64,000 bases of DNA from an uncultured Burkholderiales bacterium (GTDB lineage Bacteria > Pseudomonadota > Gammaproteobacteria > Burkholderiales > CAZDFJ01), in NCBI GenBank assembly GCA_964504875.1, contig CAZDFJ010000004.1, positions 23,870 through 87,869 of the forward strand. The letters run 5' to 3'. Position 1 is the stretch's first letter. Each line of letters starts with the position of its first letter. This document shows positions 2,657 through 47,839 of this stretch, in pieces. Position numbers and translations under genes: made by a program. The notes below the pieces were generated by a model. It saw nothing but the letters and a program-made list of their open reading frames with translations. It was not told where the DNA came from and did not search any database.

Positions 2657-3433
2657 ATGTGTTATGAATTTATTTTGGTCGAAACACACGGAAAAGTTGG
2701 TTTAATTCAATTTAATCGTCCAAAGGTTTTAAATGCATTAAGTGAGTCATTAATGGCAGAAGTGAGTGACGCTTTATTCAAATTTGAAGCGGACCCAGAA
2801 ATTGGCGCGATTGTTTTGACTGGAAATGAAAAAGCTTTTGCAGCGGGGGCAGATATCGGGGCGATGAAAGATTGGAATTATGCAGATGTCTATAATCGTG
2901 ATTATGTGACGCTTATTTGGGAAGATATGATTCGTATTCGTAAGCCTGTTATTGCGGCCGTTGCTGGTTTTGCATTGGGTGGCGGCTGCGAAGTCGCGAT
3001 GATGTGTGATTTTATCATTGCCGCTGATAATGCTGAGTTTGGACAACCTGAAGTGTCTATAGGAACGATGCCGGGTTTGGGTGGGACGCAACGTTTAACA
3101 CGTTTGGTTGGGAAATCTAAAGCAATGGATATGTGTTTAACGGGCCGACGAATTGATGCGACTGAAGCAGAAAGAATTGGCTTAGTGAGTCGTATTGTGA
3201 CAAAAGAATTGTTAAAAGAAGAAGCAATTAAGATTGCGGCACAAATTGCAAGTTTTTCTCAACCTGTTGTGAAAATGATTAAAGAATCTGTGAATCGTAG
3301 TTATGAAATGACATTAAAAGAAGGATTATTATTTGAACGTCGGGCGTTACATGCAACTTTTGGGCTCGAGGATCAAAAAGAAGGAATGAATGCGTTCATA
3401 GAAAAACGTCGTCCCCAGTTTAAAAATAGATAA
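2657..3433 (+). CDS. Enoyl-CoA hydratase (crotonase family)
   Basis: The 258-aa product carries the crotonase signatures FAAGADIGAM and GFALGGGCEVAMMCDF. A GGAGA RBS precedes the start. Confidence 0.85.
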   Translation: MCYEFILVETHGKVGLIQFNRPKVLNALSESLMAEVSDALFKFEADPEIGAIVLTGNEKAFAAGADIGAMKDWNYADVYNRDYVTLIWEDMIRIRKPVIAAVAGFALGGGCEVAMMCDFIIAADNAEFGQPEVSIGTMPGLGGTQRLTRLVGKSKAMDMCLTGRRIDATEAERIGLVSRIVTKELLKEEAIKIAAQIASFSQPVVKMIKESVNRSYEMTLKEGLLFERRALHATFGLEDQKEGMNAFIEKRRPQFKNR

Positions 3434-3455
3434 TTGACATTAAAACAAAAAATAA

Positions 3456-3491
3456 AAACACACAGAAAGTCAAAATCTGTGTGTTTTTTTT
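3456..3491 (+). terminator. Bidirectional Rho-independent terminator
   Basis: The stem pairs AACACACAG with CTGTGTGTT. An A-run lies upstream and a T-run downstream, between convergent genes. Confidence 0.7.
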
Positions 3492-3511
3492 ATTGAAAAT
3501 TATAATAATTT

Positions 3512-3880
3512 TTATGTTGTAATCAGACATTGTTTGATTGCTGACTTTTTTATAAGATTTTCCATATTTTTAGGAAGATAAACCAGTTGAAGTTGTTTTC
3601 CTTGGCGTTTCAAAAAAAAGTGGAGCTCTTGTAAAATGCCAAAACACATGCTGTCAATTAATTTAATTTTTGTAAAGTTAATCCGCAAAATTTGATGGCC
3701 ATTCATTTCGTTTTCAAAAATATGACTTAAGTATTTCCGAAATAAATAAAGCGTATCGTGTGTAAAACGCCCATGAATAAAGAGTTCAACGAGGTTTAAT
3801 GTTGCGTCACAACGCACAGATAATGAAAAAACTGTATTTTTAAATAAGAGGCGTGAATTGGGATCACTATTTGAACACAT
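3512..3880 (-). CDS. Single-domain STAS protein (anti-sigma-factor-antagonist-like), paralog 1
   Basis: The 122-aa product aligns along its whole length with the ORFs at 4720..5142 and 3962..4335. Shared blocks are G(R)xTxDxLxLFRxY, NEM, IDSxxFG and GKxLxL. The putative phospho-acceptor Ser is retained (LIDSMCFG). An AAGGAAG RBS is present. Confidence 0.7.
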   Translation of the reverse strand: MCSNSDPNSRLLFKNTVFSLSVRCDATLNLVELFIHGRFTHDTLYLFRKYLSHIFENEMNGHQILRINFTKIKLIDSMCFGILQELHFFLKRQGKQLQLVYLPKNMENLIKKSAIKQCLITT

Positions 3881-3961
3881 CTTTCTGTCTTCCTTTTATT
3901 ACAAATGTAAAAATATAAAATAATTGATCAAGTAGAGAGTGTGAAATAATTTGCGGAGAAG

Positions 3962-4335
3962 TTACGGAGGCGGGCAAGGAAAAGAAGAATGTGTGTGAAT
4001 AATAAGGGCACTCTGCCTTAATGAAGTATGAAGAAATAATTTTTCTAAATGACGAGGCAGATTTTTAAATTGAAGGGATTTAGATTGTCCGTCTAATAAA
4101 CAATCAAGTTGGATAGCAAAGCCAAAGAAGGTAATGTCAATACCAATTGCGTGTGTGAGGTCAATCATCAGTGTGTGTGCTTTCTCCATTATTTCAGAGT
4201 TCACAACACAATGGATTTGATGCTTGAAAAGCCGAAAGTTGACGAAATTGAGTTCGCCATGTACGGAAATAGTAGCTACCCCCCCCCCCCCATGGGATTT
4301 TGACCAATTATTTTTAGTATAAATTGACTATTCAT
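3962..4335 (-). pseudogene. STAS paralog 3, frame-disrupted at a poly-G tract (phase-variable gene or frameshifted pseudogene)
   Basis: The ATG at 4335 reads MNSQFILKIIGQNPMGGGG and then hits TAG at 4278..4276. The STAS body (VATISVHGELNFVNFRLFKHQ... to the stop at 3962) is open in the adjacent frame from 4327. Adding 1 G or removing 2 G restores a ~124-aa protein colinear with the paralogs. Confidence 0.7.
4279..4291 (-). repeat. Homopolymeric tract, 13 x G on the coding (minus) strand
   Basis: Direct count gives c at 4279-4280, ten c at 4281-4290 and c at 4291. The plus-strand antisense ORF translation YPPPPMGF confirms the run. It is by far the longest G/C homopolymer I found in the window. 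Confidence 0.95.
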
Positions 4336-4657
4336 TTCTTTTTTTATAAAATAAAAATAGTTCTACAATCAATAGGACACAAATTAAATTGATTATAAGC
4401 ATAAATTGCAGAATGTAAACAAAAAATTGTTTATAAATTTAATAAAAATAGTATTTTAATTGTAAATATCTTTTTTATTTTAGCTAATATAAACATTTAA
4501 TTAAAATAAATTAATAAAATAGATAATATTTATTATTATTTAATGAAACTATTTTTTTGAAAATCTCAATATTTAAAAAAAGAAAAAATGCCAGAAAGAA
4601 ATTTATTTTTATAAAAAATATAAAATAAAAAGAGATGTTTTGATGAGAATTAAATAA

Positions 4658-4689
4658 AAAAACAGCAAAATAAATTTTGCTGTTTTTTG
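4658..4689 (-). terminator. Rho-independent terminator downstream of STAS paralog 2
   Basis: The stem pairs CAGCAAAA with TTTTGCTG and is flanked by A/T runs on both sides. Confidence 0.6.
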
Positions 4690-4719
4690 TAAGAAATTAA
4701 AGCAGAAGTCTCTATTTGT

Positions 4720-5142
4720 TTACCAAGGGAGCCATGTATTCTGTTTTTTTTCTGTGATAGGCCGAGAATCATCCAATACAACGCAGGCATTAAAAGGAGA
4801 GTTTAATAAAAGTTCACGTGTATTTTCAGGAGGGTTAAGGATTTTGAGCTTTTTCCCCGCCTTTTCTAAAGTCCGATAAAGATGAATAACCATACCGAAA
4901 CCTGTACTGTCAATATGATCGGTCAGATTGCAATCAATCAACAAGGTGTGATGTTGTGGCATTTCGTTATCAAGCAAGTAAGTGGTATAGCGTCGGAAAA
5001 GTGATAAATTATCATAAGTCAATCTTCCTGTTACAATAAGCTTGAGCATATCATCTTCAATCATATGGGAAAGAATGAGTGATTGAGACTGAAAACAATT
5101 ATAAAGTCCCACATCAAAAGTATGAAAAGATAAGTTATTCAT
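4720..5142 (-). CDS. Single-domain STAS protein (anti-sigma-factor-antagonist-like), paralog 2
   Basis: The 140-aa product has the STAS core LLIDCNLTDHIDSTGFGMVIHLYRTLEKAGKKLKIL with the conserved DS(T/S)G phospho-acceptor motif. A GAGGGGA RBS is present. An extended -10-like TGCTAGAAT lies on the minus strand at 5188..5196. Confidence 0.75.
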   Translation of the reverse strand: MNNLSFHTFDVGLYNCFQSQSLILSHMIEDDMLKLIVTGRLTYDNLSLFRRYTTYLLDNEMPQHHTLLIDCNLTDHIDSTGFGMVIHLYRTLEKAGKKLKILNPPENTRELLLNSPFNACVVLDDSRPITEKKQNTWLPW

Positions 5143-5323
5143 GATTCGTCCCCTCGTGTTTTTATTTAAATCGGCATTATTTGTGTTATTCTAGCATAAA
5201 TAACCCTATAAATATAGCAAAAAAAACAAAAAATGCTAATTTATCTCAAATAAAAAATAAATTTTCAAAAAATATAATTGGTTTTTTTAGAAAAAATTAT
5301 TTTTTTCAATTTTCAATAAAAAA

Positions 5324-5350
5324 AACTCTATCTAAAAAAAAGATAGAGTT
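5324..5350 (-). terminator. Rho-independent terminator of the ilvE/zf-CHCC transcription unit
   Basis: A perfect 10-bp stem pairs AACTCTATCT with AGATAGAGTT. A/T runs flank it. Confidence 0.65.
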
Positions 5351-5394
5351 TTAATAAAAATTTCTGAACAACATAAATAGAAGAACAGAAAAGA

Positions 5395-5592
5395 TTAATG
5401 ATGTCCTTTTAAGACAATCCCTTCTTTTAACTTATATTTTGTGCCGCAATATGGACATGTTGCCTCACCCCGTTCAACTGGAATAAACACACGAGGATGC
5501 GCATCCCACAAATCCATGTTGGGCATAGGACAGTGAAGCGGTAAATCTTTTTCAGTCACTTCAATAATACGTTCTGTGATTTTTTCTGCCAT
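5395..5592 (-). CDS. zf-CHCC zinc-finger protein (NDUFS6-like)
   Basis: The 65-aa product carries LHCPMP...CPYCGTKY, the CHCC metal-ligand pattern. It lies immediately downstream of ilvE, as is common in betaproteobacteria. Confidence 0.7.
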   Translation of the reverse strand: MAEKITERIIEVTEKDLPLHCPMPNMDLWDAHPRVFIPVERGEATCPYCGTKYKLKEGIVLKGHH

Positions 5593-5615
5593 TTTTTTTG
5601 TCCAATAAAGTCAAA

Positions 5616-6542
5616 TTATTTCTGAACGTAAGCTAACCAATTTTTCTCGGCGCAAGCTTGCCCTCGCACTGCTTTAAAGAAAATATCTTGCAATTTTGTT
5701 GTAATGGGGCCCCGTTTTCCTTGCCCAATTTGACGATGATCTAACTCGCGAATAGGCGTGATTTCTGCCGCTGTTCCTGTAAAAAAGGCTTCGTCTGCCG
5801 TATAGACTTCATCACGGGTAATGCGTTTTTCAATGACAGGAATACCTAAATCGGCTGCGATTTCGATAACAGAAGCGCGGGTAATGCCTTCTAAACAAGA
5901 AGTTAAATCTGGCGTATATAATTTGCCTTTTTTAACAATAAAAACATTTTCGCCTGAACCTTCAGCAACAAAACCGTCCACATCTAATAATAAAGCTTCG
6001 TCGTAAGCATCTGTGGCTGCTTCTTGGTGCGCCAAAATGGAATTAGCATATGTTGTAACAGATTTTGCACGACACATATTCACATTCACATGATGACGCG
6101 AGAAAGACGAAGTTTTAACACGAATTCCACTTTCTAATGCTTCAGGACCTAAATAAGCGCCCCAGTACCATGCTGCAACCGCAACGTGTACGCTTAATGT
6201 TTTGGCGGAAATGCCCATTGCTTCGGAGCCATAAAATGCGATAGGGCGAATATAAGCAGATTGCAAATTATTTTCACGCACGACATCTAAATGCGCTTGA
6301 TTAATAATTTCTTTGTCGAACGGCATTTTCATTCCGAAAATGTGTGCAGAATTAAACAAGCGATCAGTGTGATCTTGTAAGCGAAAAATTGCAGGACCGT
6401 TTGTAGTTTCGTATGCGCGAACGCCTTCAAAAACGCCCATTCCATAATGTAATGTATGGGTTAAAACATGGGTTTTCGCATCGCGCCAAGGAACCATTTG
6501 GCCATCAAGCCAAATAAGGCCGTCTTTATCTGCCATTGACAT
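5616..6542 (-). CDS. ilvE: Branched-chain amino acid aminotransferase (class IV)
   Basis: The 308-aa product carries VFEGVRAY, EGSGENVF, GITR and FFTGTAAEITPI. Confidence 0.9.
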   Translation of the reverse strand: MSMADKDGLIWLDGQMVPWRDAKTHVLTHTLHYGMGVFEGVRAYETTNGPAIFRLQDHTDRLFNSAHIFGMKMPFDKEIINQAHLDVVRENNLQSAYIRPIAFYGSEAMGISAKTLSVHVAVAAWYWGAYLGPEALESGIRVKTSSFSRHHVNVNMCRAKSVTTYANSILAHQEAATDAYDEALLLDVDGFVAEGSGENVFIVKKGKLYTPDLTSCLEGITRASVIEIAADLGIPVIEKRITRDEVYTADEAFFTGTAAEITPIRELDHRQIGQGKRGPITTKLQDIFFKAVRGQACAEKNWLAYVQK

Positions 6543-12582: not shown

Positions 12583-13959
12583 ATGGAGTGGCTGTTGAAT
12601 TTTTTAAGTGGTTTTCATATAAAAGGCGTGTCCCTTCTGGGATGGTTACAGCAATTTCAACGTATTTCTTTTTTAGCCCAATTTTTTGTTGTTGGCTTAG
12701 TGGTTTTAATGTCTCGTCATTTTAGTCTTTTATCTAATCGTAAAATGATTAAAATACGGGGAGCAACCCCTTTTGTTTATACATGTATTGATGCTTTTTG
12801 TCGGATTTCTTTTCCAGTTTATGCGTTACTGATGACCATTGTGGCCCAATCTTTGTTGACAAATTATCATTTTTCAATAAAGATTTTTCATGTCGTCGTG
12901 CCTCTTCTCCTTGCTCTTGCAGCCATTCGGCTCAGTCTTTATATTATTCGTCAAACATTTGCGCGAGATAGTCATTTACTTAAAACAACAGAACGTTTTA
13001 TCACTGTAACTGTCTGGGTGACTTTTGCATTACATTTATTGGGTGTGCTCGACACAATTTTTATCATGCTCAATGATATTGGATTTCGTGTCGGTCGTTC
13101 TTATATTTCTATTCTCTTTGTATTGGATGCAATTGTCATTATTGGAATGGTGACAATTGTCATGTTTTGGCTCATGCGTTTGGCAGAAGAGCGGTTAATG
13201 CGGGCTGAACAACTTGAAGTCAATTTACGTATTGTTTTAAGTAAGGTATTGCGGGCAGTTTTTATTTTATTAAGCTTATTATTGTCATTGCCTTTAGCAG
13301 GGATTGATATTACGGCCCTTTCTGTGTTTGGGGGGGCATTAGGTGTGGGGTTGGGGTTTGGGCTTCAAAAAATTGCCAGTAATTATGTAAGTGGTTTTAT
13401 TATTTTGCTAGAAAAATCAATTAAATTAGGCGATCTCCTTAAAGTTGGGGAGAGCTACGGACAGGTTTCACAATTGAATACGCGTTATATTGTGATAAAA
13501 GACCTCAGTGGAATCGAGTTTATTATTCCAAATGAAACTTTAATTGGGACCACGGTCATTAATTATTCGCACACCAATAGCAAAATGCGGGTAGCGATTC
13601 CAGTTGTGGTGGGATATCAATCAGATATTGCTTTTGTTAAGGCATTAATTTTGGAAATTACTACATCCCATGCCCGTGTTTTATCTGATCCTGCGCCAAA
13701 TGTTTTTGTGAAGAATTTTGCGGATAGTGGTATTGAATTGGAGATAGGTTTGTGGATTAGTGATCCAGAGCTAGGCGTTTTGGCCGTGCGTTCTTATATT
13801 TTGGAAAATTTATTAACTGCCTTTGCAGAACATCACATAGAAATTCCTTATCCATATAGACAATTGGTTTTTTCTTCAGAGATGACTCAATCTGATGGGC
13901 AGACAGAAGCATTATTAGGGCAAAAAAATACTATTACGACCACAAAAACTAATGTTTAA
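12583..13959 (+). CDS. MscS-family mechanosensitive channel
   Basis: The 458-aa product has a multi-TM N-terminus followed by the MscS core ASNYVSGFIILLEKSIKLGD and a beta domain. Confidence 0.8.
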   Translation: MEWLLNFLSGFHIKGVSLLGWLQQFQRISFLAQFFVVGLVVLMSRHFSLLSNRKMIKIRGATPFVYTCIDAFCRISFPVYALLMTIVAQSLLTNYHFSIKIFHVVVPLLLALAAIRLSLYIIRQTFARDSHLLKTTERFITVTVWVTFALHLLGVLDTIFIMLNDIGFRVGRSYISILFVLDAIVIIGMVTIVMFWLMRLAEERLMRAEQLEVNLRIVLSKVLRAVFILLSLLLSLPLAGIDITALSVFGGALGVGLGFGLQKIASNYVSGFIILLEKSIKLGDLLKVGESYGQVSQLNTRYIVIKDLSGIEFIIPNETLIGTTVINYSHTNSKMRVAIPVVVGYQSDIAFVKALILEITTSHARVLSDPAPNVFVKNFADSGIELEIGLWISDPELGVLAVRSYILENLLTAFAEHHIEIPYPYRQLVFSSEMTQSDGQTEALLGQKNTITTTKTNV

Positions 13960-15211
13960 GCCTATGGCGCAATAAAGCAATCCGTTCGGTTAGTGGGGGA
14001 TGCGTTTCATACACAAGATTATACCAAGGATCAGAAAGAAAATAAGAAGAACCATCCCCTCCTAATTTAAGAAAAACATGAATCAAAGCAGTGGAATGGA
14101 CCTTTTCACTTGCGTATTGATCTGCCTCTAACTCGGCCCGTTGGGCCATAAAATTAGCAAGAGGTTGTAATGGAAAAGCAAAAATAGGTAAGATCATGAT
14201 CATTAAAAGTAATCCAGCGGCGCCTCCTATTTTTTCCACATGAAGCCCTAAATAAAACCAATCTTGAGTGAATAAAAGCTGGCAGAAATATAACAATATA
14301 AAACTGGTAATGCTCATAAATCCAAAGCGTTGATAATGATGTTTATGATAAATATGCCCTAATTCATGTGCAATCACGGCTTTAATTTCTTCCAAATTAA
14401 GACGCGAAAAGAGCTGCTCATGAAGTACAATTTGTTTAGATTGACCCACACCAGTGAAATAGGCCAACCCGCGATCAGAAAGAGATGTATTAGGGGCGGT
14501 GACAAAAATCGATTGAATAGAAAATCCACATTGTTGCATGAATTGTAGACATTCTTGTTGAAAATCAAGATCAGTAAGAGGGCGCGTTTGCACGAAAAAA
14601 GGATCAATCCAAATTGGAAAAATAAACATAATAAATAAAATAAAACTATTGAAAAAGATCCATAAAGCAAACCACCATGCTGTAATATGCTGCATAATCC
14701 ACAATAAAATTAGTATAAAGGGAATACCTAATATCAGACCCAGACTAATTTCTTTCATAAATTGCCGACTTTTTTCAAGCCATATTGCCTTAATATTTTT
14801 TTCAAGCGGCATATAAAGTATTAGGCTAAAAATGCTATTAACACAATATGAAATTAAAAAAGTAGACAGAAAAAGAGCAAGTCCAAATTTATAAGCGGCT
14901 TGATCTGGCGGATAGCATGCTTGCCAATAATGTATGAGTTTATTGAAGCCCGAACCCCAAGTCATTCCTAAAAGAAAGAGGGCTTCTAAGAGAATTTGAA
15001 TATTCTGTATTTTTATTTTTTTTATAGTATAATCAGTGAGTTGCGTATGATATGTTGTGCTGGCTAAACCATGAAATTCGACAGGAATGTAATCCCGATG
15101 TCGATAGAGATGATGGATTTGTCGTCGGTTAATCCATAACTTGAGAAGAGTATAGCTACTTAGAAAAACGAAAAAAACAAAAGTAAAAAAGGTCTGAGCA
15201 TCTAAAATCAT
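13949..15211 (-). CDS. Integral-membrane M48 (Ste24/HtpX-type) zinc metalloprotease
   Basis: The 420-aa product has a multi-TM N-terminal half, the HELGH zinc motif (AHELGHIYHKHH) and a downstream E(LEAD) motif. It lies 27 nt downstream of the preceding gene on the same strand. Confidence 0.8.
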   Translation of the reverse strand: MILDAQTFFTFVFFVFLSSYTLLKLWINRRQIHHLYRHRDYIPVEFHGLASTTYHTQLTDYTIKKIKIQNIQILLEALFLLGMTWGSGFNKLIHYWQACYPPDQAAYKFGLALFLSTFLISYCVNSIFSLILYMPLEKNIKAIWLEKSRQFMKEISLGLILGIPFILILLWIMQHITAWWFALWIFFNSFILFIMFIFPIWIDPFFVQTRPLTDLDFQQECLQFMQQCGFSIQSIFVTAPNTSLSDRGLAYFTGVGQSKQIVLHEQLFSRLNLEEIKAVIAHELGHIYHKHHYQRFGFMSITSFILLYFCQLLFTQDWFYLGLHVEKIGGAAGLLLMIMILPIFAFPLQPLANFMAQRAELEADQYASEKVHSTALIHVFLKLGGDGSSYFLSDPWYNLVYETHPPLTERIALLRHRLKH

Positions 15212-15238
15212 GTAAAACCAACAAAGATGATTTGATCA

Positions 15239-15739
15239 TTAACGTACTTGTGTTTCTTTATACTGAAACATAAGGGGAACACGGCGCGGTTTTCGTTTTG
15301 CACAATAAAGCTTGCTTTGGGTCGGGCCGTAATCAATCAACATGCTGCCTGCCGCAGAACGATATTGATTGGGTTTGTGAATCGGAAAAAATCGAACAGC
15401 CGCATTGCTTTCTAGGGCTTTTTTTGCCTCTTCTACCGAAGAAGCAATCACTACACCTACAAATTCATATTCGCTTGCGGGATGGTTGACAAAACCTTCT
15501 TGTAATTTTAACCCGAAAAGGGTCTCAGAAACGCTAAACCATTCTGCTTCGCCTTCAGTACGAAGTGGTTCTTTGTAAAAATCTCGTAAATACTGTCTAA
15601 AAAATGCGCCACTGACTTCGTCATGGCACAATAGTGCCGATCCAAAAATCGTATTAAATGTTGTGGGGCCTGCGGTAACAGTGCAAACAGCACACAGACA
15701 AATCAGCCCAAAAAAAGATGAAAAGACAAACTTATTCAT
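15239..15739 (-). CDS. Exported protein of unknown function
   Basis: The 166-aa product has an N-terminal signal-peptide-like segment MNKFVFSSFFGLICLCAVCTVTA. I recognise no family. Its start is 11 nt after the stop of the RsbT-like gene. Confidence 0.5.
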   Translation of the reverse strand: MNKFVFSSFFGLICLCAVCTVTAGPTTFNTIFGSALLCHDEVSGAFFRQYLRDFYKEPLRTEGEAEWFSVSETLFGLKLQEGFVNHPASEYEFVGVVIASSVEEAKKALESNAAVRFFPIHKPNQYRSAAGSMLIDYGPTQSKLYCAKRKPRRVPLMFQYKETQVR

Positions 15740-15750
15740 GAAGAAATCGT

Positions 15751-16182
15751 TTAGAAAGAATCATAGAAACGCGCACGCATTATGGAAATAGTGACACAAG
15801 TTCCTTCAGTTGTGGATTGTAAAGAAAACTCATCCATGAGTCGGCGCGTCCCGGGTAATCCCCCACCCAAACTGTTTGTATTAGTACTGTAATTATCTTG
15901 CAATGCAAGCTCTATATTGGGAATGCCGGGACCACTATCTCGCACAATGACTTTCATTTTAATAAAATGATGCGCCAAATTCGACTCGTCAACAATTGTA
16001 CATTCTCCAGCATACGCATATTTGATGACGTTGCGTGTCAACTCAGAAATGGCAGTAGCAATTTTGGTTTGATCAACTGTATTAAAGCCAATTGCCCGAG
16101 CCATTTCGCGACCCATCCGTCGTGCAATAATAATATCATTCTGCACTTGTAAGGGAATGACGTGTTGTTTTATTTCAAACAT
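15751..16182 (-). CDS. RsbT-like anti-sigma regulatory factor / switch Ser-Thr kinase (HATPase_c_2)
   Basis: The 143-aa product is colinear with Bacillus RsbT as recalled. Shared blocks are DIIIARRMGREMARAIGFNTVDQTKIATAISELTRN, DSGPGIP and GLPGTRRLMDEFSL. Confidence 0.75.
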   Translation of the reverse strand: MFEIKQHVIPLQVQNDIIIARRMGREMARAIGFNTVDQTKIATAISELTRNVIKYAYAGECTIVDESNLAHHFIKMKVIVRDSGPGIPNIELALQDNYSTNTNSLGGGLPGTRRLMDEFSLQSTTEGTCVTISIMRARFYDSF

Positions 16183-31523: not shown

Positions 31524-32375
31524 ATGAATAATAGTAGTCATTCTGAAGTACTCAGACAACGTGAGTTTGCATTTAGCCGAGAAGATTTTTTGCGTATTAA
31601 AAAATTGATTTACGAACACGCAGGCATCTCTTTAAATGATAATAAACAAGAAATGGTATATAGCCGTTTGGCGCGGCGTTTAAGACAGCATAATTTTCAA
31701 TCATTCAAAGAATACTTGGATTATTTACAAGTTGTTCCTGACGAATGGGAGGCTTTCACGAACGCCTTGACGACAAATTTAACCTCATTTTTTCGAGAGG
31801 CTCATCATTTTCCCATTTTGGCTGAACATTTATTAAAATTAAAACATCAACCGATTCGTATTTGGAGTGCCGCCGCTTCTACAGGAGAAGAACCTTATTC
31901 TATTGCAATTACTGTGGTAGAGACGCTTAATCAGTTGAATCCTTCTGTTGAGATTTTGGCAACAGATTTGGATACACATGTGTTGCAAAAAGCTCGAGAA
32001 GCAATTTATGCGGTCGATCGTGTTGAAAAAATGGATCCGGAGCGTGTGAAACGTTTTTTCTTGCGCGGAAAAAATCAATTTGATGGCTTTGTGCGGGCGC
32101 GTCCTGAATTATGTCGCATTATAGATTTTAAGCAACTTAATCTATTGGACGAAAATTGGAATATCAAAGGGCCATTTGATGTGATTTTTTGCCGAAATGT
32201 CATGATTTATTTTGATAAAGAAACACAATATAAAATTCTTAAAAAATTTGTGCCATTACTGAGGCCAGACGGTTTGTTATTTACAGGGCATTCAGAAAGC
32301 TTTTTGCATGCAACAGATTTATTTAAGCCATTAGGGAAAACAGTGTATCGCCTTGCTCATACTTCGCATAAATAG
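31524..32375 (+). CDS. cheR: Chemotaxis protein methyltransferase
   Basis: The 283-aa product has a CheR N-terminal helical domain plus a SAM domain: TSFFRE, IWSAAASTGEEPYSIA and FCRNVMIYFD. Confidence 0.9.
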   Translation: MNNSSHSEVLRQREFAFSREDFLRIKKLIYEHAGISLNDNKQEMVYSRLARRLRQHNFQSFKEYLDYLQVVPDEWEAFTNALTTNLTSFFREAHHFPILAEHLLKLKHQPIRIWSAAASTGEEPYSIAITVVETLNQLNPSVEILATDLDTHVLQKAREAIYAVDRVEKMDPERVKRFFLRGKNQFDGFVRARPELCRIIDFKQLNLLDENWNIKGPFDVIFCRNVMIYFDKETQYKILKKFVPLLRPDGLLFTGHSESFLHATDLFKPLGKTVYRLAHTSHK

Positions 32376-32408
32376 TTAATTAGAAAATATATTGGAGACC
32401 AAAATTAT

Positions 32409-33029
32409 ATGGTGATACAAGATTATACAGAAACACTTAGTCCTAATTTGTATTTTGATCGACATTTCAATATGGAGGCGGGCAAGATTTTACCAGGGGA
32501 ATATTATGTAACGAGGCGGGACATGCTTCTTGTGACTGTATTAGGTTCCTGTGTTTCAGCATGTATTCGGGATGCTATATCTGGAATAGGCGGAATGAAT
32601 CATTTTATGTTGCCTGATAGCGGTTCCTCAGATAAAGAAAGTTTGCTAAGCTCTTCTGCGCGTTATGGGACATACGCTATGGAAGTCTTAATTAATGAAT
32701 TATTAAAATTAGGGGCAAAGCGAGCAAATTTGGAAGCAAAAGTTTTTGGGGGCGGGCGCGTCTTAAAAGGTTTTACGGTTGGGAATGTTGGGCAAAGAAA
32801 TGCTGATTTTGTTTTAGAATTTTTAAAAACAGAAAATATTCGGGTTGTTGCCCAAGATTTACTCGATGTTTATCCTCGAAAAGTTTATTTTTTTCCAAAA
32901 ACCGGTAAAGTGCTTGTGAAGAAATTGAAAAGTACACATGGGGATGAAAATATTCTTAAAGATGAAAGAGAATACAATCGACGGATTGTGCAGTCACCTA
33001 TTAGTGGGGATATTGATCTCTTTACTTAA
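32409..33029 (+). CDS. cheD: Chemoreceptor glutamine deamidase
   Basis: The 206-aa product carries LGSCVSACIRD ... GGMNHFMLPD ... AKVFGGG. Confidence 0.85.
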   Translation: MVIQDYTETLSPNLYFDRHFNMEAGKILPGEYYVTRRDMLLVTVLGSCVSACIRDAISGIGGMNHFMLPDSGSSDKESLLSSSARYGTYAMEVLINELLKLGAKRANLEAKVFGGGRVLKGFTVGNVGQRNADFVLEFLKTENIRVVAQDLLDVYPRKVYFFPKTGKVLVKKLKSTHGDENILKDEREYNRRIVQSPISGDIDLFT

Positions 33030-33145
33030 TCAAAAAAATAAATTTATAATCATACATGTTTAATAAGAAAACAGTGTTTATAGGTAAAGAGAAAAAAAAA
33101 TGCTGAGTATATGTGAGGAAATATCAGCTTTTAAAAGGATTGTTT

Positions 33146-34249
33146 ATGAAACTAAAGGTACTCGTTGTTGATGATTCAGCATTAATCCGGAGTGTTTTAA
33201 AGGAAATTATTAATAGCCAGCCAGATATGGAAGTTGTTGGGGCGGCTCCTGACCCTTACGTTGCAAGGGATTTGATTAAAAAATTAAATCCTGATGTGCT
33301 GACACTGGATGTGGAAATGCCGCGGATGGATGGATTAGACTTTTTAGAAAAGTTAATGAGATTACGTCCTATGCCAGTGGTGATGGTTTCAACTTTGACA
33401 GAACGGGGGTCAGATGTGACATTTCGTGCCCTTGAGTTGGGGGCAGTAGATTTTATTACAAAACCAAAGTTAGATATTAGTCGTGGCTTACAGCAGTATA
33501 GTGATGAAATTACAGATAAGATTCGTGCCGCTGCACGGGCTAAGATAAAACGACTTCATGCATTACAAACCATGGTAAAAGGACATGAGCCTGAACAAGC
33601 GCGGCCTGTGGCACCTATTGCTCATGTTCCGACTTTGGGAAATGCGTTCATGACAACAGAAAAGGTAATATTAGTAGGGGCTTCTACCGGTGGCACAGAA
33701 GCAATCAAAGATTTTCTAATAGAACTGCCTCCAGATTGTCCAGGCATTTTAATCACACAACATATGCCAGAAGCGTTTACCCGTTCTTTTGCGAATCGCC
33801 TGAATAATTTATGTCGTATTACTGTAAAAGAGGCGGAGCATAATGAACGTATTCTTCCTGGACATGCGTATATTGCGCCAGGCCACTCCCATTTGTTGAT
33901 CCGCAAAAATGGGGCAAATTATGTCACAGAATTGAGTCAAGCGGCGCCTGTTAATCGTCATCGGCCTTCAGTAGATGTTTTATTTCGGTCTGCTGCGGAA
34001 ATTGTAGGTAAAAATGCGATTGGCATTATTATGACAGGCATGGGTAAGGATGGGGCACTAGGCATGTTAGAAATGAAACAAGCCGGGGCTTTTAACTTTG
34101 CGCAGGATGAGGCGAGTTGTATTGTTTTTGGTATGCCAAAAGAAGCCATTGCTGTGGGGGCAGTCGATGAAATTATTACGATTAAAGAAATGGCCCACGC
34201 TGTGATGACATATTTAACGAGCTTGGGAAAAAGAAATTTTCGGGTGTAA
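33146..34249 (+). CDS. cheB: Chemotaxis response regulator protein-glutamate methylesterase
   Basis: The product has REC ([19 protein letters not shown]) and an esterase domain ([19 protein letters not shown]). The ORF track starts at 33113, and the ATG at 33146 gives the canonical N-terminus. Confidence 0.9.
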
Positions 34250-34776
34250 TATTCCCAAAAAATAAATATTAAAAATAATAAAACTGTTTTTCCAGAAGCA
34301 GAAAAATAATATATGAAGCTTATAATTTTGACCTAGTCTATTTATTTTATGGTCAAATATAGTATTTTCCTTATATTTGGAAGGAAAGAATAACAAAAAA
34401 CGAATTTGATTTGCTATAATAAACATCATATAGAATTGCCAATATTTTTCTTTATGAAAAATACTAGAAAAATAAAATTTTTTATTATCTATCATGGAAA
34501 AAATACAGGTTTTTTGTTAAGCAGGCCTTAAGTGTATTGCTTTGAAAGCCAAGGTATCAAGAGTACATGAAAAAAATTGTAGTTCATAAAAAGATATGAT
34601 TGATGTGTAATCGATTATATTAGGTACTTTTCATAAAGAAGTATTTATGATTTAGTCAGTGAAGTAATCTATCAAAAAGTAGTCAATCTGATCATCTCCT
34701 GTTCTAATCTCTTAAAAAGAAAATGACAAGATTGAACATATTTTAGCGTACCTTAGTATTTTTGAGGATGATAAGC

Positions 34777-35082
34777 ATGCAAGTAAATTTGCAAGTTAAA
34801 GAAGGAAAAGCAAAGCTGGTATTAAGCGGGCGATTTGATTTTAATTCCCACCGTGAATTTCGTAGCGGTTGTGATGAAGCGATGAATTCTCCTAAAATTA
34901 ATGAAATTGAAATTGATTTAGGCGGCGTGGATTATCTGGACAGTTCAGCATTAGGGATGCTTTTATTATTACGTGAGCGCGCAGTCGCTTCTAATAAAAA
35001 ATTGGCCTTGGCGAATTGTCGGGGAACAGTCAAACAAGTGCTCGATGTTGCAAATTTTAGTCAACTCTTCACGATTCGTTAA
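34777..35082 (+). CDS. Canonical STAS anti-sigma-factor antagonist (SpoIIAA/RsbV/CrsA-like)
   Basis: The ~101-aa product has YLDSSALGMLLLLRE with the conserved phospho-acceptor Ser. A GAGGA RBS lies 8 nt before the ATG at 34777. The ORF track starts at a TTG at 34762. Confidence 0.8.
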   Translation: MQVNLQVKEGKAKLVLSGRFDFNSHREFRSGCDEAMNSPKINEIEIDLGGVDYLDSSALGMLLLLRERAVASNKKLALANCRGTVKQVLDVANFSQLFTIR

Positions 35083-35806
35083 GCGTTGATTCATCGCCAT
35101 AAATCAGTGAATTCTTCCACACATCCTGTTTATGTAAAATTTAATTTTGATGTGATGTTTTATGATTATTTATATAAATAACTAACAAGAAAACATCAAA
35201 AAATCATTTTAAAAATAGAGTGAATATGAATAGGATGTGATCAGTATTGTGATGCGCTCAAATGCTTAGTTTTATCCATTTTCTTGAAAATAGCAGCCGC
35301 TGAATTTTTGTCTTTTCGAGTTTGTTGAGACAGAGTTAATACTGTTTTTTTAACTTTAATCAGCAAACCAATTAACTCTCTTCTCATCTAATTTAGAAGA
35401 AAAGCAATCATTCGTCTATGAAAAATATGATTAATCTATTTTTATTGCGGGGCTTTCAGAAAGGCTAATAAATATGCGGGTTATTTTTTGCAAATCTTAT
35501 TGAAATGTAAAAAATAAGATCATCCGTGAAAAAATATAGATTTTTCACTATTAATTGCACGATTTTTCCATTAGAATAATACGGTTTTATAGTTGTTATG
35601 AGTATGGTATTTTTATCATTTCGATTTTGGTCGGCAATTAAAGCTAACAGTTAATTTTTATTAATTTTAATAGGTCATTATTTATTGAAATAATAATAGT
35701 GTGAAGACTTTACATCTTTTATCATGTGATAATTATGAAATAAAGTATAAAAATTTACTGTTAAGTATTAATCATTTTTAGTCTTTTTGCAGCGAGTGCT
35801 TCAACA

Positions 35807-37534
35807 ATGCAAGGAAAAATTAAGGTTTTGGTCGTTGATGATTTGGAACAAAATTTACTGTTAATCAGTCGATTTGTAACAAAATTAGGACATCAAGTAG
35901 TCACGGCAAAGAATGGTGAAGAAGCGATTCGATGCTATCAGGAAGAACGTCCCGATGTAATCCTCATGGATATTATGATGCCGGGGATGGATGGGTATGA
36001 GGCGACCGCACGGATTAAAGCACTTGAAACAAACAAGTGGGTCCCCGTTGTTTTTCTGAGTGCGATGACACAAGATGAAAGTTTGGTACGCGGCTTGGAT
36101 GTCGGAGGGGATGACTATCTGACAAAGCCAGTGAATCTTGTTGTATTGAAAGCAAAGATTAATGCGATGTTACGTATTGCCGAGTTGCAGGAATATCTTG
36201 CAGAAAAAAATGATAAGCTGGAAAGCTATTATTTTATGGCAGAGGAGGAGAAACGTGTAGCGAAACACCTCATGGAGCATATTATTAATGCTGAAAAATT
36301 ACATGATGAATCGCTAGAGTTTTTTACTGAACCTGCGCAAGGATTTAATGGTGATTTGCTTGCTGCTGCCCGTTCGCCAGGGAATATTTTACATGTGTTA
36401 CTTGCAGATGGGACAGGGCATGGTCTGTCTGCTGCCATTAACGTCATGTTATTAATTCAGCCTTTTTACGCTATGACAGAAAAAGGATTTTCCCTTCCGA
36501 GTATTGTCGAGGAAATGAATCGCAAATTGAAAGCGGTTATGCCAGCGGATCGTTTTGTGGCTGCAACTTTTGTCTCGATTGATATGCGAAATCATCTTAT
36601 TGAAGTATGGAATGGGGGCAATCCTGCTTTAATTGTTTTAGATAATGAAGGTCAAATTATTAAACAATTTCGGGCAAAACACTTACCATTGGGTATTTTA
36701 AATGAGAATGAATTTCGTTCTTATACTGAGATTTATCAGTGGGAAAGACCTGTTCAAGTAGTGCTTTGTTCGGATGGTGTAACAGAGGCAGAAAATACAG
36801 AAAATAAAATGTTTGGCATTGATGGTGTGATTAGTAGTCTACAACGTCATCAACCTGTTGATCGTTTAACTTGCTTAATGAATGATATTAAAACGCATTT
36901 AAACGGCCGGCCTGCTGTAGATGATTTATCTATGGCGTTGATTCATTGCCCAATGCATGAAGAACAATCTCATAAATTTGTGGAACAAAATGCCAATTAT
37001 GTGCATACCCTCGAACAAGGGATTGGTTATTGGAAATTTGAATTGGGACTCAGCGCCCATGAATTGAAATATATTGACGTTGTTCCGATTATGTTGAATG
37101 TCATTAATGAAATTCATATTGCACGTGAACATGCCTCACAACTCTTTTTGATTGTGTCAGAATTGTATAACAATGCATTAGATCATGGTATTTTAAAATT
37201 AAATTCGCAATTAAAATCACAGCCTGAAGGGATGGATCGTTATCTGACAGAGCGAAAACAACGTTTACAAAATTTAGAGCAAGGAAGTATTGAGATTCGT
37301 TGTGAAAGTGTGATTTTTAACCAAAAAGCTTGTATTAAAATTCATGTGCGAGATAGTGGTCAAGGTTTTGATTTTCATCATATTGATAAAACAAATGATC
37401 ATCATATTACCAACCCAAGTGAATTAATGATTCGACCTTTTGGGAGAGGAATACATTTAGTGAAGCATCTTGCCAGCCATGTGCAATACTTGGGACAAGG
37501 CAATGAAGTTGTGGTCTATTATGAATTAAGTTAA
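35807..37534 (+). CDS. Three-domain response regulator: REC, PP2C/SpoIIE phosphatase and HATPase anti-sigma kinase (CrsR-like)
   Basis: The 575-aa product has REC (VLVVDD, ILMDIMMPGMDG, DYLTKP). It also has PP2C (GDLLAA, LLADGTGHGLSAA, CSDGVTE) and a C-terminal RsbW-like HATPase (SELYNNALDHG, VRDSGQGFD, GRGIHLV). Confidence 0.8.
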   Translation: MQGKIKVLVVDDLEQNLLLISRFVTKLGHQVVTAKNGEEAIRCYQEERPDVILMDIMMPGMDGYEATARIKALETNKWVPVVFLSAMTQDESLVRGLDVGGDDYLTKPVNLVVLKAKINAMLRIAELQEYLAEKNDKLESYYFMAEEEKRVAKHLMEHIINAEKLHDESLEFFTEPAQGFNGDLLAAARSPGNILHVLLADGTGHGLSAAINVMLLIQPFYAMTEKGFSLPSIVEEMNRKLKAVMPADRFVAATFVSIDMRNHLIEVWNGGNPALIVLDNEGQIIKQFRAKHLPLGILNENEFRSYTEIYQWERPVQVVLCSDGVTEAENTENKMFGIDGVISSLQRHQPVDRLTCLMNDIKTHLNGRPAVDDLSMALIHCPMHEEQSHKFVEQNANYVHTLEQGIGYWKFELGLSAHELKYIDVVPIMLNVINEIHIAREHASQLFLIVSELYNNALDHGILKLNSQLKSQPEGMDRYLTERKQRLQNLEQGSIEIRCESVIFNQKACIKIHVRDSGQGFDFHHIDKTNDHHITNPSELMIRPFGRGIHLVKHLASHVQYLGQGNEVVVYYELS

Positions 37535-44624: not shown

Positions 44625-44728
44625 AGGTGGCGAGCCCGACCCACGGCACTTGTCGACAATGACATGGCTGCTTCCTTCCGGACCTGACCTGGTGTGCCAT
44701 TTAACAATGCGTGGAGACCCGCCATTGT
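44625..44728 (-). ncRNA. ffs: Signal recognition particle 4.5S RNA
   Basis: The minus strand reads ...GGCGGGUCUCC...ACCAGGUCAGGUCCGGAAGGAAGCAGCC...GGGCUCGCCACC. The 28-nt ACCAGGUCAGGUCCGGAAGGAAGCAGCC block is identical to the conserved domain IV of E. coli 4.5S RNA. The 5' and 3' ends are complementary. End coordinates are good to about 5 nt. Confidence 0.85.
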
Positions 44729-44749
44729 ATTGGCGAAACACCAAAAAAC

Positions 44750-44840
44750 TGGCGGAAAGAGCGGGATTCGAACCCGCGGTACGGTATTACCGTACACACG
44801 CTTTCCAGGCGTGCACCTTCAACCACTCGGTCACCTTTCC
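44750..44840 (-). tRNA. tRNA-Ser (anticodon GGA), with long variable arm and encoded CCA
   Basis: The minus strand reads GGAAAGGTGACCGAGTGGTTGAAGGTGCACGCCTGGAAAGCGTGTGTACGGTAATACCGTACCGCGGGTTCGAATCCCGCTCTTTCCGCCA. The acceptor stem pairs GGAAAGG with TCTTTCC. The anticodon loop is CUGGAAA. A variable-arm hairpin is present, and the T-loop is GGTTCGAATCC. Confidence 0.9.
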
Positions 44841-47761: not shown

Positions 47762-47800
47762 AATTGAAACGTCATAAAAAGGCGTTTCAATTATTTTTTA
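47762..47800 (+). terminator. Orphan Rho-independent terminator in an intergenic region
   Basis: A 10-bp stem pairs AATTGAAACG with CGTTTCAATT and is followed by ATTTTTTATGTTTTTT. It lies 470 nt downstream of the nearest plus-strand stop and 40 nt upstream of the cbiX-like start. Confidence 0.55.
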
Positions 47801-47839
47801 TGTTTTTTCGTCATCAATATATTTTATTTTTTATTTGAA

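What the first reader, a model, noticed from the sequence alone, without database searches (positions are those of the whole stretch)
3512..5142. Tandem triplet of divergent single-domain STAS genes with no kinase, phosphatase or sigma factor beside them
Three same-strand genes of 122, ~124 (restored) and 140 aa share a colinear STAS core. The core reads G-x-(L/F)-T/N-x-D/V-x-L-x-LF(R/K), then NEM/SEI, then L-(L/R/M)-I-(D/N), then IDSxxFG, then GK/SKxL. They are otherwise highly diverged, so this is an old duplication and not a recent repeat. They lie between an enoyl-CoA hydratase gene and the ilvE unit. They are embedded in spacers that are visibly more AT-rich than the surroundings (3881-3961, 4336-4719, 5143-5394). 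At least two independent terminators are present (4658-4689, 3456-3491). Partner-switch antagonists are normally encoded next to their kinase (RsbW, SpoIIAB, BtrW). Here the only candidate kinases are 11 kb away (RsbT-like, 15751..16182) and 31 kb away (CrsR-like, 35807..37534). A multi-copy, individually regulated antagonist battery feeding one or two kinases would be an unusual architecture. It is my best candidate for an undescribed regulatory module in this window.
Basis: partly seen in the sequence, partly recalled or inferred. Interest (0 to 1): 0.75.

Follow-up and report, generated by a model that had tools for sequence, protein, structure and literature searches.

The report
Three orphan STAS genes, one phase-variable
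Three neighbouring genes for small STAS-type "switch" proteins are real, conserved in sister species and have no kinase beside them. The middle gene is broken by a run of 13 G that probably turns it on and off at random, which is a modest twist on a well-known bacterial signalling theme.

Summary
Three minus-strand paralogues encode single-domain STAS proteins of the SpoIIAA/RsbV type: A at 4720-5142, B at 3962-4335 and C at 3512-3880. They lie between ilvE/zf-CHCC and a paa-type enoyl-CoA hydratase gene, with no kinase, phosphatase or sigma gene beside them.

- **Conservation:** The same A-B-C array sits at the same place in two sister lineages. There it is under purifying selection (dN/dS about 0.1) but evolves 5-10 times faster than its flanks. 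It is absent beside ilvE in 80 other betaproteobacterial genomes.
- **Phospho-site:** A has canonical DSTG, C has DSMC and B has Ile in place of Ser.
- **Poly-G tract:** B is "broken" only by a 13-G tract in codons 15-19. Fourteen G restore the frame. Assemblies show 13, 13, 13, 14, at least 15 and at least 19 G, and many contigs break at this tract.
- **Fourth STAS gene:** A canonical STAS gene (34762-35082) sits next to the CrsR/HsbR-like gene.

Best reading: these are trans-acting partner-switch antagonists, and B is a phase-variable member that cannot be phosphorylated. The partners are unproven. This is a new variant of a known kind and of moderate interest.

The parts
4720..5142 (-). STAS gene A (140 aa), with a canonical phospho-site motif IDSTGFG (Ser79). 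It is its own transcription unit.
   Evidence: Pfam STAS 35.3 bits and STAS_2 29.0 bits. The AF2 model has pLDDT 82, and its best fold matches are SpoIIAA, TM1442 and RsbV with TM 0.76-0.82. Orthologues in L094 and L096 are 54-57% identical, with dN/dS 0.11 between the sisters.
5211..5239 (-). Candidate sigma-70 promoter of A (TTAGCA-17-TATATT with an extended TG).
   Evidence: Consensus scan. The TT(A/T)GCA block is conserved in the sister species. This is a consensus match only.
4657..4688 (-). Intrinsic terminator after A.
   Evidence: A 14-15 bp perfect stem followed by a T run. A terminator of different sequence lies at the same place in L094 and L096.
4336..4719 (.). A-B spacer, 384 bp at 14.8% GC, the most AT-rich intergenic stretch of the window.
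4392..4419 (-). Promoter of B, or of B and C together: TTTACA-16-TATAAT, 11 of 12 matches.
   Evidence: Both hexamers are conserved in all three species.
3962..4335 (-). STAS gene B. It is out of frame here (OFF) and gives 124 aa when the tract has 14 G. Ile68 replaces the phosphorylatable Ser (IDITFFG).
   Evidence: Paralogy to A is 1.5e-7. The orthologues of 121 aa are intact, have no G tract and carry IDIILFG. Best reciprocal-type hit of the window B is the sister B, 65-68 bits against 34-42 bits for A or C.
4279..4291 (-). Homopolymeric tract of 13 G (C13 on the + strand) inside codons 15-19 of B, in the beta1-beta2 loop. This is the candidate slipped-strand switch.
   Evidence: It is the only G/C run longer than 7 in 64 kb. 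Tract lengths are 13 in the window, L001 and L006; 14 (in frame) in L098; at least 15 in L005; and at least 19 in L003. Contigs L099, L102, L103, L104, L106 and L004 end at or beside it.
3512..3880 (-). STAS gene C (122 aa), motif IDSMCFG (Ser77 kept, Gly lost), with its own AAGGAAG ribosome-binding site. It lies 81 bp after B with no terminator between, so it is probably co-transcribed with B.
   Evidence: Pfam STAS 24.2 bits. No terminator is predicted in 3881-3961. Orthologues are 59% identical, with dN/dS 0.08 between the sisters.
3448..3494 (.). Bidirectional terminator shared by C and the convergent enoyl-CoA hydratase gene.
   Evidence: Inverted repeat I8, 19-nt arms, 89% complementary, flanked by T runs (sequence).
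15751..16182 (-). Candidate partner 1: an orphan RsbT-type serine kinase (143 aa, HATPase_c_2) in an operon with a 166-aa secreted protein and an M48 peptidase.
   Evidence: Pfam. It is 50-58% identical to proteins annotated as RsbT. It is orphan in the sister species too (L107). No link to A/B/C was tested.
35807..37534 (+). Candidate partner 2: a REC-PP2C-HATPase_c_2 protein (575 aa) with the HsbR/CrsR architecture.
   Evidence: Pfam. A full-length homologue in L091 (35.5% identity) is followed by an MCP gene and a distant member of the A/B/C clade.
34762..35082 (+). Fourth STAS gene of the window (D, 106 aa, canonical DSSA motif). It is the likely cognate partner of the HsbR/CrsR-like protein.
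   Evidence: Pfam STAS 55 bits and STAS_2 58 bits. It is the only other STAS ORF in the window.

Best explanation
The locus is a genus-specific array of three paralogous STAS-domain-only proteins of the SpoIIAA/RsbV (anti-sigma-factor antagonist) type. It is organised as two transcription units: A alone, then B with C.

The copies have specialised at the site that a partner kinase would phosphorylate:
- A keeps the canonical D-S-T-G.
- C keeps the Ser but not the Gly.
- B carries Ile in every species, so it cannot be switched off by serine phosphorylation.

In the species of this window, B has also acquired a 13-G tract in the loop between its first two strands. Slipped-strand changes of tract length would put the gene in frame (11, 14 or 17 G) or out of frame (12 or 13 G). 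B, and possibly C downstream through polarity, would then be expressed in only part of the population.

The inferred mechanism is as follows. The three proteins act in trans, by partner switching, on one or more HATPase_c_2 kinase or anti-sigma-type proteins encoded elsewhere. A and C are the regulated (phosphorylatable) antagonists. B is a phosphorylation-insensitive competitor whose presence is set stochastically.

Shown here: the fold, the paralogy, conservation and purifying selection, the site differences, the tract and its frame logic, and the transcription signals. Inferred: tract switching in vivo, the partner-switch role, and the identity of the partners.
For: Fold and family:
- Pfam STAS for A and C and for the B orthologue.
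- A profile search of PDB sequences puts SpoIIAA, TM1081, RsbV and TM1442 on top.
- Foldseek with the AF2 model of A does the same, with TM 0.76-0.82.
- The Ser of A and C aligns with the phospho-Ser of SpoIIAA and RsbV.

Real genes kept as a unit:
- The same order and the same flanks are found in L094, L095 and L096.
- dN/dS is 0.08-0.11 for all three between the two sister lineages.
- The B promoter and the terminator after A are conserved.

Lineage-specific and fast-evolving:
- No homologue lies beside ilvE in 80 other betaproteobacteria.
- Only 280 hits at E<=1e-3 were found among 1.84 billion representative proteins, with a gap after the orthologues.
- dN is 0.33-0.67 against 0.03-0.08 for the flanks.

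Switch:
- G13 is unique in the window. Base-composition arithmetic gives a chance expectation of about 4e-5 (my estimate, not a tool result).
- Both reading frames around the tract are open, and one extra G joins them.
- A 14-G in-frame version exists in L098. Tracts of at least 15 and at least 19 G, and many contig breaks, occur at this site.
- The sister species have no tract there.

Link to kinases:
- Two HATPase_c_2 proteins lie in the window.
- A distant member of the clade (P0153) lies directly after an HsbR-like REC-PP2C-kinase homologue and an MCP gene.
Against: - No kinase, phosphatase, sigma or anti-sigma gene is adjacent in any of the three species, so no partner is identified by context.
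- The HsbR/CrsR-like protein already has a canonical STAS neighbour.
- The RsbT-type kinase belongs to a family that normally works with RsbS/RsbR-type STAS proteins. A/B/C do not resemble those.
- Every assembly that spans the whole of B shows 13 G, the OFF state (window, L001, L006).
- No full-length in-frame B protein with 3-6 Gly is on record among about 15 billion proteins.
- The 14-G observation sits in the first 31 bases of a contig and carries a neighbouring mismatch.
- Contig ends in poly-G can be artefacts of short-read chemistry.
- B of this species is by far the most diverged copy, only 31-33% identical to its orthologue. That could equally mean relaxed selection.
- Other distant relatives of the clade sit behind a porin-like gene and lack the Ser, which hints at roles other than kinase-driven switching.
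Confidence: 0.5

Rival explanations
1. B is simply a decaying pseudogene, or the 13-G run is a homopolymer sequencing error. The locus would then be a functional pair (A and C) plus a relic, and there would be no phase variation.
For: All three full-span assemblies give 13 G. No in-frame full-length product is on record. B is the fastest-evolving copy, with dN 0.64-0.67. Its window version falls below the Pfam cut-offs.
Against: - Apart from the tract, both frames are free of stops over 124 codons, and all family-invariant residues are kept.
- A 13-G run does not arise by chance in 37% GC DNA, and such runs are mutationally unstable (established knowledge of simple-sequence contingency loci).
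- One assembly has 14 G in frame and others have longer tracts.
- The strong promoter is conserved.
Confidence: 0.17
2. The three proteins are non-canonical STAS-only proteins. Their output is not a serine-kinase/anti-sigma partner. They might bind another target directly, as proposed for SypA, RbaV, HmpV or HsbA with its diguanylate cyclase, or serve as accessory subunits of a membrane system. Phosphorylation would play little or no role.
For: No kinase is adjacent. B and the distant relatives P0008, P0009, P0151, P0152 and P0153 lack the Ser. P0009 and P0152 lie 13 bp after a 489-aa porin-like gene in two species. Non-canonical STAS-only proteins are documented (PMC8256260).
Against: A keeps the full DSTG motif in all three species and C keeps the Ser. 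Sequence and fold are closest to kinase-bound SpoIIAA and RsbV. The MlaB model scores 23.6 bits against a cut-off of 90, and no mla or SulP genes are nearby.
Confidence: 0.22
3. The triplet replaces RsbR/RsbS. The three STAS proteins would form a stressosome-like scaffold that sequesters the orphan RsbT-type kinase (15751-16182) and is phosphorylated by it.
For: The kinase is a clear RsbT relative. Its homologues sit in rsbR-rsbS-rsbT-rsbX modules. Here and in the sister species it has no STAS gene beside it. The triplet and the orphan kinase are found in the same two sister-species samples.
Against: The A/B/C profile scores RsbS at 2-4 bits and RsbR at -1.8 bits, against 18.9 for SpoIIAA and 24.7 for the window's canonical STAS. 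No stressosome protein appears in the PDB sequence search up to E=10. There is no RsbR-type sensor domain, and no RsbX or RsbU_N gene in the window. The kinase is 84% conserved between species while the STAS genes are 31-59% conserved, which is a poor sign of co-evolution.
Confidence: 0.08
4. The array is horizontally acquired cargo, such as a defence, phage or mobile-element module, unrelated to host signalling.
For: GC is lower than in the neighbours, 31-38% against 40-42%. The array is absent from other betaproteobacteria at this site. It evolves fast.
Against: There are no PADLOC or PHROGs matches. There are no integrase, transposase, tRNA or flanking repeats. Synteny is stable and selection is purifying across species.
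Confidence: 0.03

Closest known systems
SpoIIAA / RsbV anti-sigma-factor antagonists (Bacillus partner-switching modules)
   Same: Single STAS domain of about 110-140 aa. They are the best sequence and fold matches. A carries the D-S-T-G phospho-site in the same alignment column.
   Different: They are not encoded with their kinase, phosphatase or sigma factor. Scores are far below the TIGR00377 cut-off, 21.6-26.6 bits against 53.45. There are three diverged copies in tandem, one without the Ser and with a poly-G tract.
HsbA/HsbR (P. aeruginosa PA3347/PA3346) and CrsA/CrsR (Shewanella): a STAS protein plus a REC-PP2C-kinase response regulator
   Same: The window has exactly this pair (34762-35082 and 35807-37534) after cheR-cheD-cheB. 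This matches the PA3346/PA3347 description in PMC8256260. A distant relative of A/B/C follows an HsbR-like gene in L091.
   Different: A/B/C are 30 kb away and share little with the cognate STAS D (0-35 bits). It is untested whether they are extra substrates or competitors.
Several unlinked antagonists acting on one kinase: Chlamydia RsbV1/RsbV2 (PMC8256260) and M. tuberculosis RsfA/RsfB on UsfX (my own knowledge; RsfB-UsfX structure 8ih8)
   Same: More than one STAS-only antagonist per system, with different sensitivity to phosphorylation. RsfA is regulated without phosphorylation, as B would have to be.
   Different: Those are not tandem paralogue arrays and none is known to be phase-variable.
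RsbS/RsbR stressosome scaffold with the RsbT kinase
   Same: Several STAS paralogues serving one small HATPase_c_2 kinase. An RsbT-type kinase is present and orphan.
   Different: A/B/C are not of the RsbS/RsbR sequence type. They have no sensor domains and are not adjacent to the kinase.
Simple-sequence-repeat contingency genes, including phase-variable regulators (reviews PMC11868660 and PMC8355987, listed; Campylobacter flgR/flgS and Bordetella bvgS from my own knowledge)
   Same: A long intragenic G/C homopolymer near the 5' end whose length sets the reading frame.
   Different: No STAS or anti-sigma-antagonist gene was found described as phase-variable. Switching here is inferred from assemblies and has not been measured.

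Membership tests
STAS domain (Pfam PF01740/PF13466), SpoIIAA-like fold | Match to the Pfam STAS models above the gathering score | tested here: met
   A scores 35.3 bits and C 24.2 bits against a cut-off of 22.6. The window B does not reach it (STAS_2 21.3 against 29.2, STAS 13.8). Its L096 orthologue does, at 24.2 bits, and B is a significant paralogue of A and C.
STAS domain (Pfam PF01740/PF13466), SpoIIAA-like fold | Alternating beta-alpha fold superposable on SpoIIAA/RsbV | tested here: met
   The AF2 model of A has pLDDT 82 and pTM 0.75. Foldseek gives SpoIIAA at 4e-7 with TM 0.76, and RsbV with TM 0.82. B and C were not modelled.
Anti-sigma-factor antagonist (TIGR00377 / partner-switching SpoIIAA-RsbV class) | Score above the NCBIfam TIGR00377 cut-off | tested here: not met
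   A scores 26.6 bits and C 21.6 bits against a cut-off of 53.45. B gave no hit.
Anti-sigma-factor antagonist (TIGR00377 / partner-switching SpoIIAA-RsbV class) | Conserved phosphorylatable Ser in a D-S-(S/T)-G motif at the start of helix 2 | tested here: inconclusive
   A has DSTG in all species, so the feature is met. C has DSMC or DSMS, with the Ser kept and the Gly lost. B has DIT or DII, with no Ser in any species, so the feature is not met.
Anti-sigma-factor antagonist (TIGR00377 / partner-switching SpoIIAA-RsbV class) | Encoded next to its HATPase_c_2 kinase/anti-sigma factor and/or PP2C phosphatase | tested here: not met
   Neither is within 10 kb in the window, L001, L094 or L096. The nearest HATPase_c_2 genes are 11 and 31 kb away.
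Anti-sigma-factor antagonist (TIGR00377 / partner-switching SpoIIAA-RsbV class) | Binds, and is phosphorylated by, a cognate kinase, releasing a sigma factor or other output | not testable with these tools
   This needs two-hybrid or pull-down assays and in vitro phosphorylation.
RsbS/RsbR stressosome STAS proteins | RsbS/RsbR-type sequence and an rsbR-rsbS-rsbT gene order | tested here: not met
   The profile scores RsbS at 2-4 bits and RsbR at -1.8 bits, against SpoIIAA at 18.9 bits. The RsbT-like gene has no STAS neighbour.
MlaB (STAS subunit of the Mla lipid transporter) | Match to NF033618 above the cut-off, and mlaFEDC neighbours | tested here: not met
   A scores 23.6 bits against a cut-off of 90. 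No ABC transporter genes are adjacent.
SulP/SLC26 transporter C-terminal STAS domain (fragment) | Contiguous transmembrane SulP domain, or similarity above the TIGR00815 cut-off | tested here: not met
   Score is 15.1 bits against a cut-off of 380. No SulP ORF or remnant is found in the window locus or the sister loci.
Simple-sequence-repeat phase-variable (contingency) gene | Homopolymer of about 9 nt or more inside the 5' part of the ORF, whose length decides the frame | tested here: met
   G13 lies at 4279-4291 in codons 15-19. With 13 G there is a stop directly after the tract. With 14 G the ORF reads through for 124 aa.
Simple-sequence-repeat phase-variable (contingency) gene | Tract length varies within and between populations, with ON and OFF forms both present | tested here: inconclusive
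   There are 13 G in three assemblies, 14 G in one contig tip, and at least 15 and at least 19 G at two contig ends. Six more contigs break at or beside the tract. These are short-read assemblies, and no full-length ON product is on record.

The most novel reading that the evidence does not exclude
B is a phase-variable antagonist that is immune to phosphorylation. When its G tract is in frame, B permanently occupies the kinase or anti-sigma partner that A and C engage reversibly. That would lock a whole partner-switch output (for example motility, biofilm or a stress regulon) in one state in a random subpopulation. This would be a 'phasevarion' built on a STAS partner switch instead of on a DNA methyltransferase.
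Probability: 0.2. Interest if true: 0.7.

Novelty: new variant of a known kind. Interest (0 to 1): 0.42.

Why it matters
Partner-switching modules are usually read from gene neighbourhood. Here a conserved set of three antagonists has no neighbour to explain it. The set shows a clean division of labour at the phospho-site: a canonical Ser, an altered Ser, and no Ser.

If the poly-G tract really switches B, this would be the first case I could find of simple-sequence phase variation acting on a STAS antagonist. Stochastic bet-hedging would then be wired directly into a post-translational signalling switch.

The locus would also be a compact natural system for asking how several antagonists compete for one kinase.

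If the tract turns out to be fixed, the locus is just another group of orphan STAS-only proteins in a poorly sampled betaproteobacterial genus.

Tried and rejected
1. A word-indexed homology search with A found only A itself. With a 7-sequence alignment it found only 7 proteins.
2. Scanning 80 betaproteobacterial ilvE loci for STAS neighbours found none. The same scan showed there is no close genome in the species collection; the best ilvE identity is 77-78%. The organism was not identified beyond 'low-GC betaproteobacterium'.
3. Two JGI metagenome scans, with the A and C orthologue alignments, found no relatives. The 9-sequence alignment was too diverged to search with.
4. A sigma-28-like GCCGATTT lies upstream of A at 5168-5175. 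It is not conserved in the sister species and is not enriched in the window, so it was rejected.
5. PADLOC and PHROGs gave no hits. Defence and phage readings were rejected.
6. Rfam and tandem-repeat scans of the spacers found nothing.
Only A was modelled, with a 3-sequence alignment.
8. An exact look-up of ten reconstructed in-frame B proteins found none on record.
9. A literature search for sample accessions gave nothing, so the habitat is unknown.
10. The stressosome-replacement idea was tested by profile scores and disfavoured.
Full report
**1. What is in the sequence**

Between a convergent enoyl-CoA hydratase gene (2657-3433, +) and the ilvE/zf-CHCC unit (5395-6542, -) lie three minus-strand reading frames.

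- A (4720-5142, 140 aa) passes Pfam STAS at 35.3 bits, and C (3512-3880, 122 aa) at 24.2 bits; the cut-off is 22.6.
- The middle gene B is listed only as an 80-aa ORF (3962-4204). Translation in three frames shows an ATG at 4335 that reads MNSQFILKIIGQNPMGGGG and then stops.
- The stop arises because the frame changes inside a run of 13 G (window 4279-4291, C13 on the + strand). The next frame is open for 109 codons to the stop at 3962.
- One more G joins the two frames into a 124-aa protein.
- The three proteins are significant paralogues: A-C 5e-15, A-B 1.5e-7 and B-C 1e-5. They share a colinear core with 17 invariant positions.

**2. Fold and class**

- A profile of the three proteins, and later of nine orthologues, was searched against PDB sequences. 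It finds SpoIIAA, TM1081, RsbV and TM1442 first, then SLC26 STAS domains and MlaB. No stressosome protein appears up to E=10.
- An AlphaFold2 model of A (pLDDT 82) superposes best on SpoIIAA bound to SpoIIAB, TM1442, RsbV and RsfB, with TM 0.76-0.82.
- The same profile scores the window's own canonical STAS protein at 24.7 bits and SpoIIAA at 18.9 bits. It scores RsbS at only 2-4 bits and RsbR at -1.8 bits.
- The proteins are therefore STAS-only proteins of the anti-sigma-antagonist type. They are a very diverged branch of it: TIGR00377 gives 21.6-26.6 bits against a cut-off of 53.45.

**3. Conservation**

- HMMER against 1.84 billion representative proteins found only 280 hits at E<=1e-3. After A, B and C themselves came an orthologue of C (P0002) and one of B (P0004), and then a gap to 1e-10.
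- The contigs carrying these orthologues are L094, L095 and L096. They show the same gene order: ilvE - zf-CHCC - A (141 aa) - B (121 aa, intact) - C (122 aa) - enoyl-CoA hydratase - PaaN - flavodoxin.
- Flanking proteins are 87-94% identical to the window's. A is 54-57% identical, C 59% and B only 31-33%.
- Between the two sister lineages, dN/dS is 0.08-0.11 for all three genes. They are constrained genes that nevertheless evolve 5-10 times faster than their neighbours.
- The window B is still closest to the sister B: 65-68 bits against 34-42 bits for A or C.
- None of 80 ilvE loci from other betaproteobacteria has a relative beside it. JGI metagenomes gave nothing. The array appears confined to a small, poorly sampled lineage.

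**4. Differentiated phospho-site**

In the column that aligns with the phosphorylated Ser of SpoIIAA and RsbV:
- A has D-S-T-G in all three species.
- C has D-S-M-C or D-S-M-S.
- B has D-I-T or D-I-I.

B therefore cannot be regulated by serine phosphorylation at the canonical site, and this has been true since before the species split.

**5. The poly-G tract**

- The tract is the only G/C run longer than 7 in the 64 kb. It is absent from the sister species, where the corresponding loop reads KKHYEQIN.
- It encodes the Gly loop between strands 1 and 2.
- Twenty-odd contigs of the same species (99.4-99.9% identical) were fetched through A and C:
  - three span the tract with 13 G (window, L001, L006);
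  - L098 has 14 G and reads in frame;
  - L005 and L003 end inside tracts of at least 15 and at least 19 G;
  - L099, L102, L103, L104, L106 and L004 end in or within a few bases of it.
- This is what a hypermutable tract would produce. It is also what short-read chemistry can do at long G runs. The 14-G contig tip carries a neighbouring mismatch.
- No full-length in-frame B protein with 3-6 Gly is on record.
- I rate phase variation as likely (about 0.65-0.7) but not shown. Transcriptional slippage on the tract could also give some in-frame mRNA from a 13-G template; that is inference.

**6. Transcription signals**

- A has its own promoter-like site and a strong terminator at 4688..4657. A terminator of different sequence occupies the same position in the sister species.
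- The 384-bp A-B spacer has 14.8% GC, the lowest intergenic value in the window. It ends in a TTTACA-16-TATAAT promoter conserved in all three species.
- B and C are 81 bp apart with no terminator between them, and C has its own AAGGAAG ribosome-binding site. They are probably co-transcribed, so the state of B might affect C through polarity; that too is inference.
- The other spacers are no more AT-rich than is usual for this genome.

**7. Candidate partners**

The window holds exactly four STAS ORFs and two HATPase_c_2 proteins.

- *HsbR/CrsR-like protein.* The 575-aa REC-PP2C-kinase (35807-37534) follows cheR-cheD-cheB and a canonical 106-aa STAS gene at 34762-35082 (Pfam 55 bits).
  - This is the HsbR/HsbA (PA3346/PA3347) arrangement described in PMC8256260. 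This kinase is therefore not an orphan.
  - A full-length homologue of it in L091 (35.5% identity) is followed by an MCP gene and by P0153, a distant member of the A/B/C clade. That gives a weak contextual link between this clade and HsbR-like proteins.
- *RsbT-like protein.* The 143-aa protein (15751-16182) is 50-58% identical to annotated RsbT proteins.
  - Its relatives lie in rsbR-rsbS-rsbT-rsbX modules.
  - Here and in the sister species it is orphan, in an operon with a 166-aa secreted protein and an M48 peptidase.
  - It is tempting to pair the orphan kinase with the orphan STAS genes. However, A/B/C are not of the RsbS/RsbR type, and the kinase is far more conserved (84%) than they are.
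- Other distant clade members (P0009, P0152) sit 13 bp behind a porin-like gene and lack the Ser. This keeps a non-kinase role open.

**8. Interpretation**

The best-supported account is a genus-specific, conserved set of trans-acting STAS antagonists. It would comprise one canonical phosphorylatable member (A), one altered member (C) and one non-phosphorylatable member (B). In this species B has come under a simple-sequence ON/OFF switch. The partner-switch mechanism and the partners are inferred, not shown.

Rivals are listed with their tests: B as a pseudogene, non-canonical STAS-only function, stressosome replacement, and acquired cargo.

- Defence and phage origins were checked and rejected.
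- A sigma-28 promoter upstream of A was checked and rejected.

**9. Novelty**

- STAS-only proteins that are unlinked to a kinase, present in several copies, or acting on non-sigma targets are well documented (PMC8256260).
- What I could not find described is a conserved tandem trio with a graded phospho-site, or any phase-variable STAS antagonist.
- I classify the locus as a new variant of a known kind, of moderate interest. The interest depends on read-level proof that the tract varies.

Noticed in passing
window 31524-37534: cheR, cheD and cheB are followed by a canonical 106-aa STAS gene (34762-35082, DSSA motif) and a REC-PP2C-HATPase_c_2 gene. Together these form an HsbR/HsbA- or CrsR/CrsA-type module attached to a chemosensory cluster.
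   Followed up: partly
window 13949-16182 (- strand); L107 4458-7506: An orphan RsbT-type kinase sits in an apparent operon with a 166-aa signal-peptide protein that has no Pfam family, and an M48 membrane peptidase. The arrangement is conserved in the sister species, where an IS605 OrfB fragment lies upstream. RsbT relatives elsewhere sit in rsbR-rsbS-rsbT-rsbX modules.
   Followed up: partly
L092 21-1920; L093 129-2027: Distant relatives of the A/B/C clade (P0152, P0009) have no Ser at the phospho-site. They lie 13 bp downstream of a 488-489-aa porin-like gene (weak Porin_O_P/BBP2 matches), next to tatABC, in two species. A porin plus STAS pairing is unexplained.
   Followed up: no
L091 6015-10489: A REC-PP2C(-kinase) homologue of the window's 575-aa protein is followed by an MCP gene and a 162-aa STAS protein (P0153) with DQIG in place of DSTG.
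   Followed up: partly
search result, (P0005, P0006, P0007, P0011, P0012 and others): Many of the next-best hits to the A/B/C profile are proteins of about 225-330 aa with two STAS domains in tandem. These are fused versions of what is encoded here as separate neighbouring genes.
   Followed up: no
window 4336-4719: This spacer has 14.8% GC, the most AT-rich intergenic stretch of the window. Most short-read contigs of this species stop in it or at the adjacent G tract. The gene caller placed a spurious 69-aa ORF in the equivalent spacer of L094.
   Followed up: partly
window 46098-47839: This 1.7-kb stretch has no ORF of 110 aa or more and no Rfam match. It holds only short overlapping ORFs, including a 93-aa one at 47009-47290.
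   Followed up: no
window 44626-44840 (- strand): Small SRP RNA (64 bits) lies directly beside tRNA-Ser(GGA). This is the only GC-rich intergenic stretch (49% GC).
   Followed up: no
L107 11567-13771: The sister-species contig carries a 734-aa leucine-rich-repeat protein near the RsbT-like operon. This is a possible hint of a host-associated lifestyle, which would fit the use of a contingency tract.
   Followed up: no
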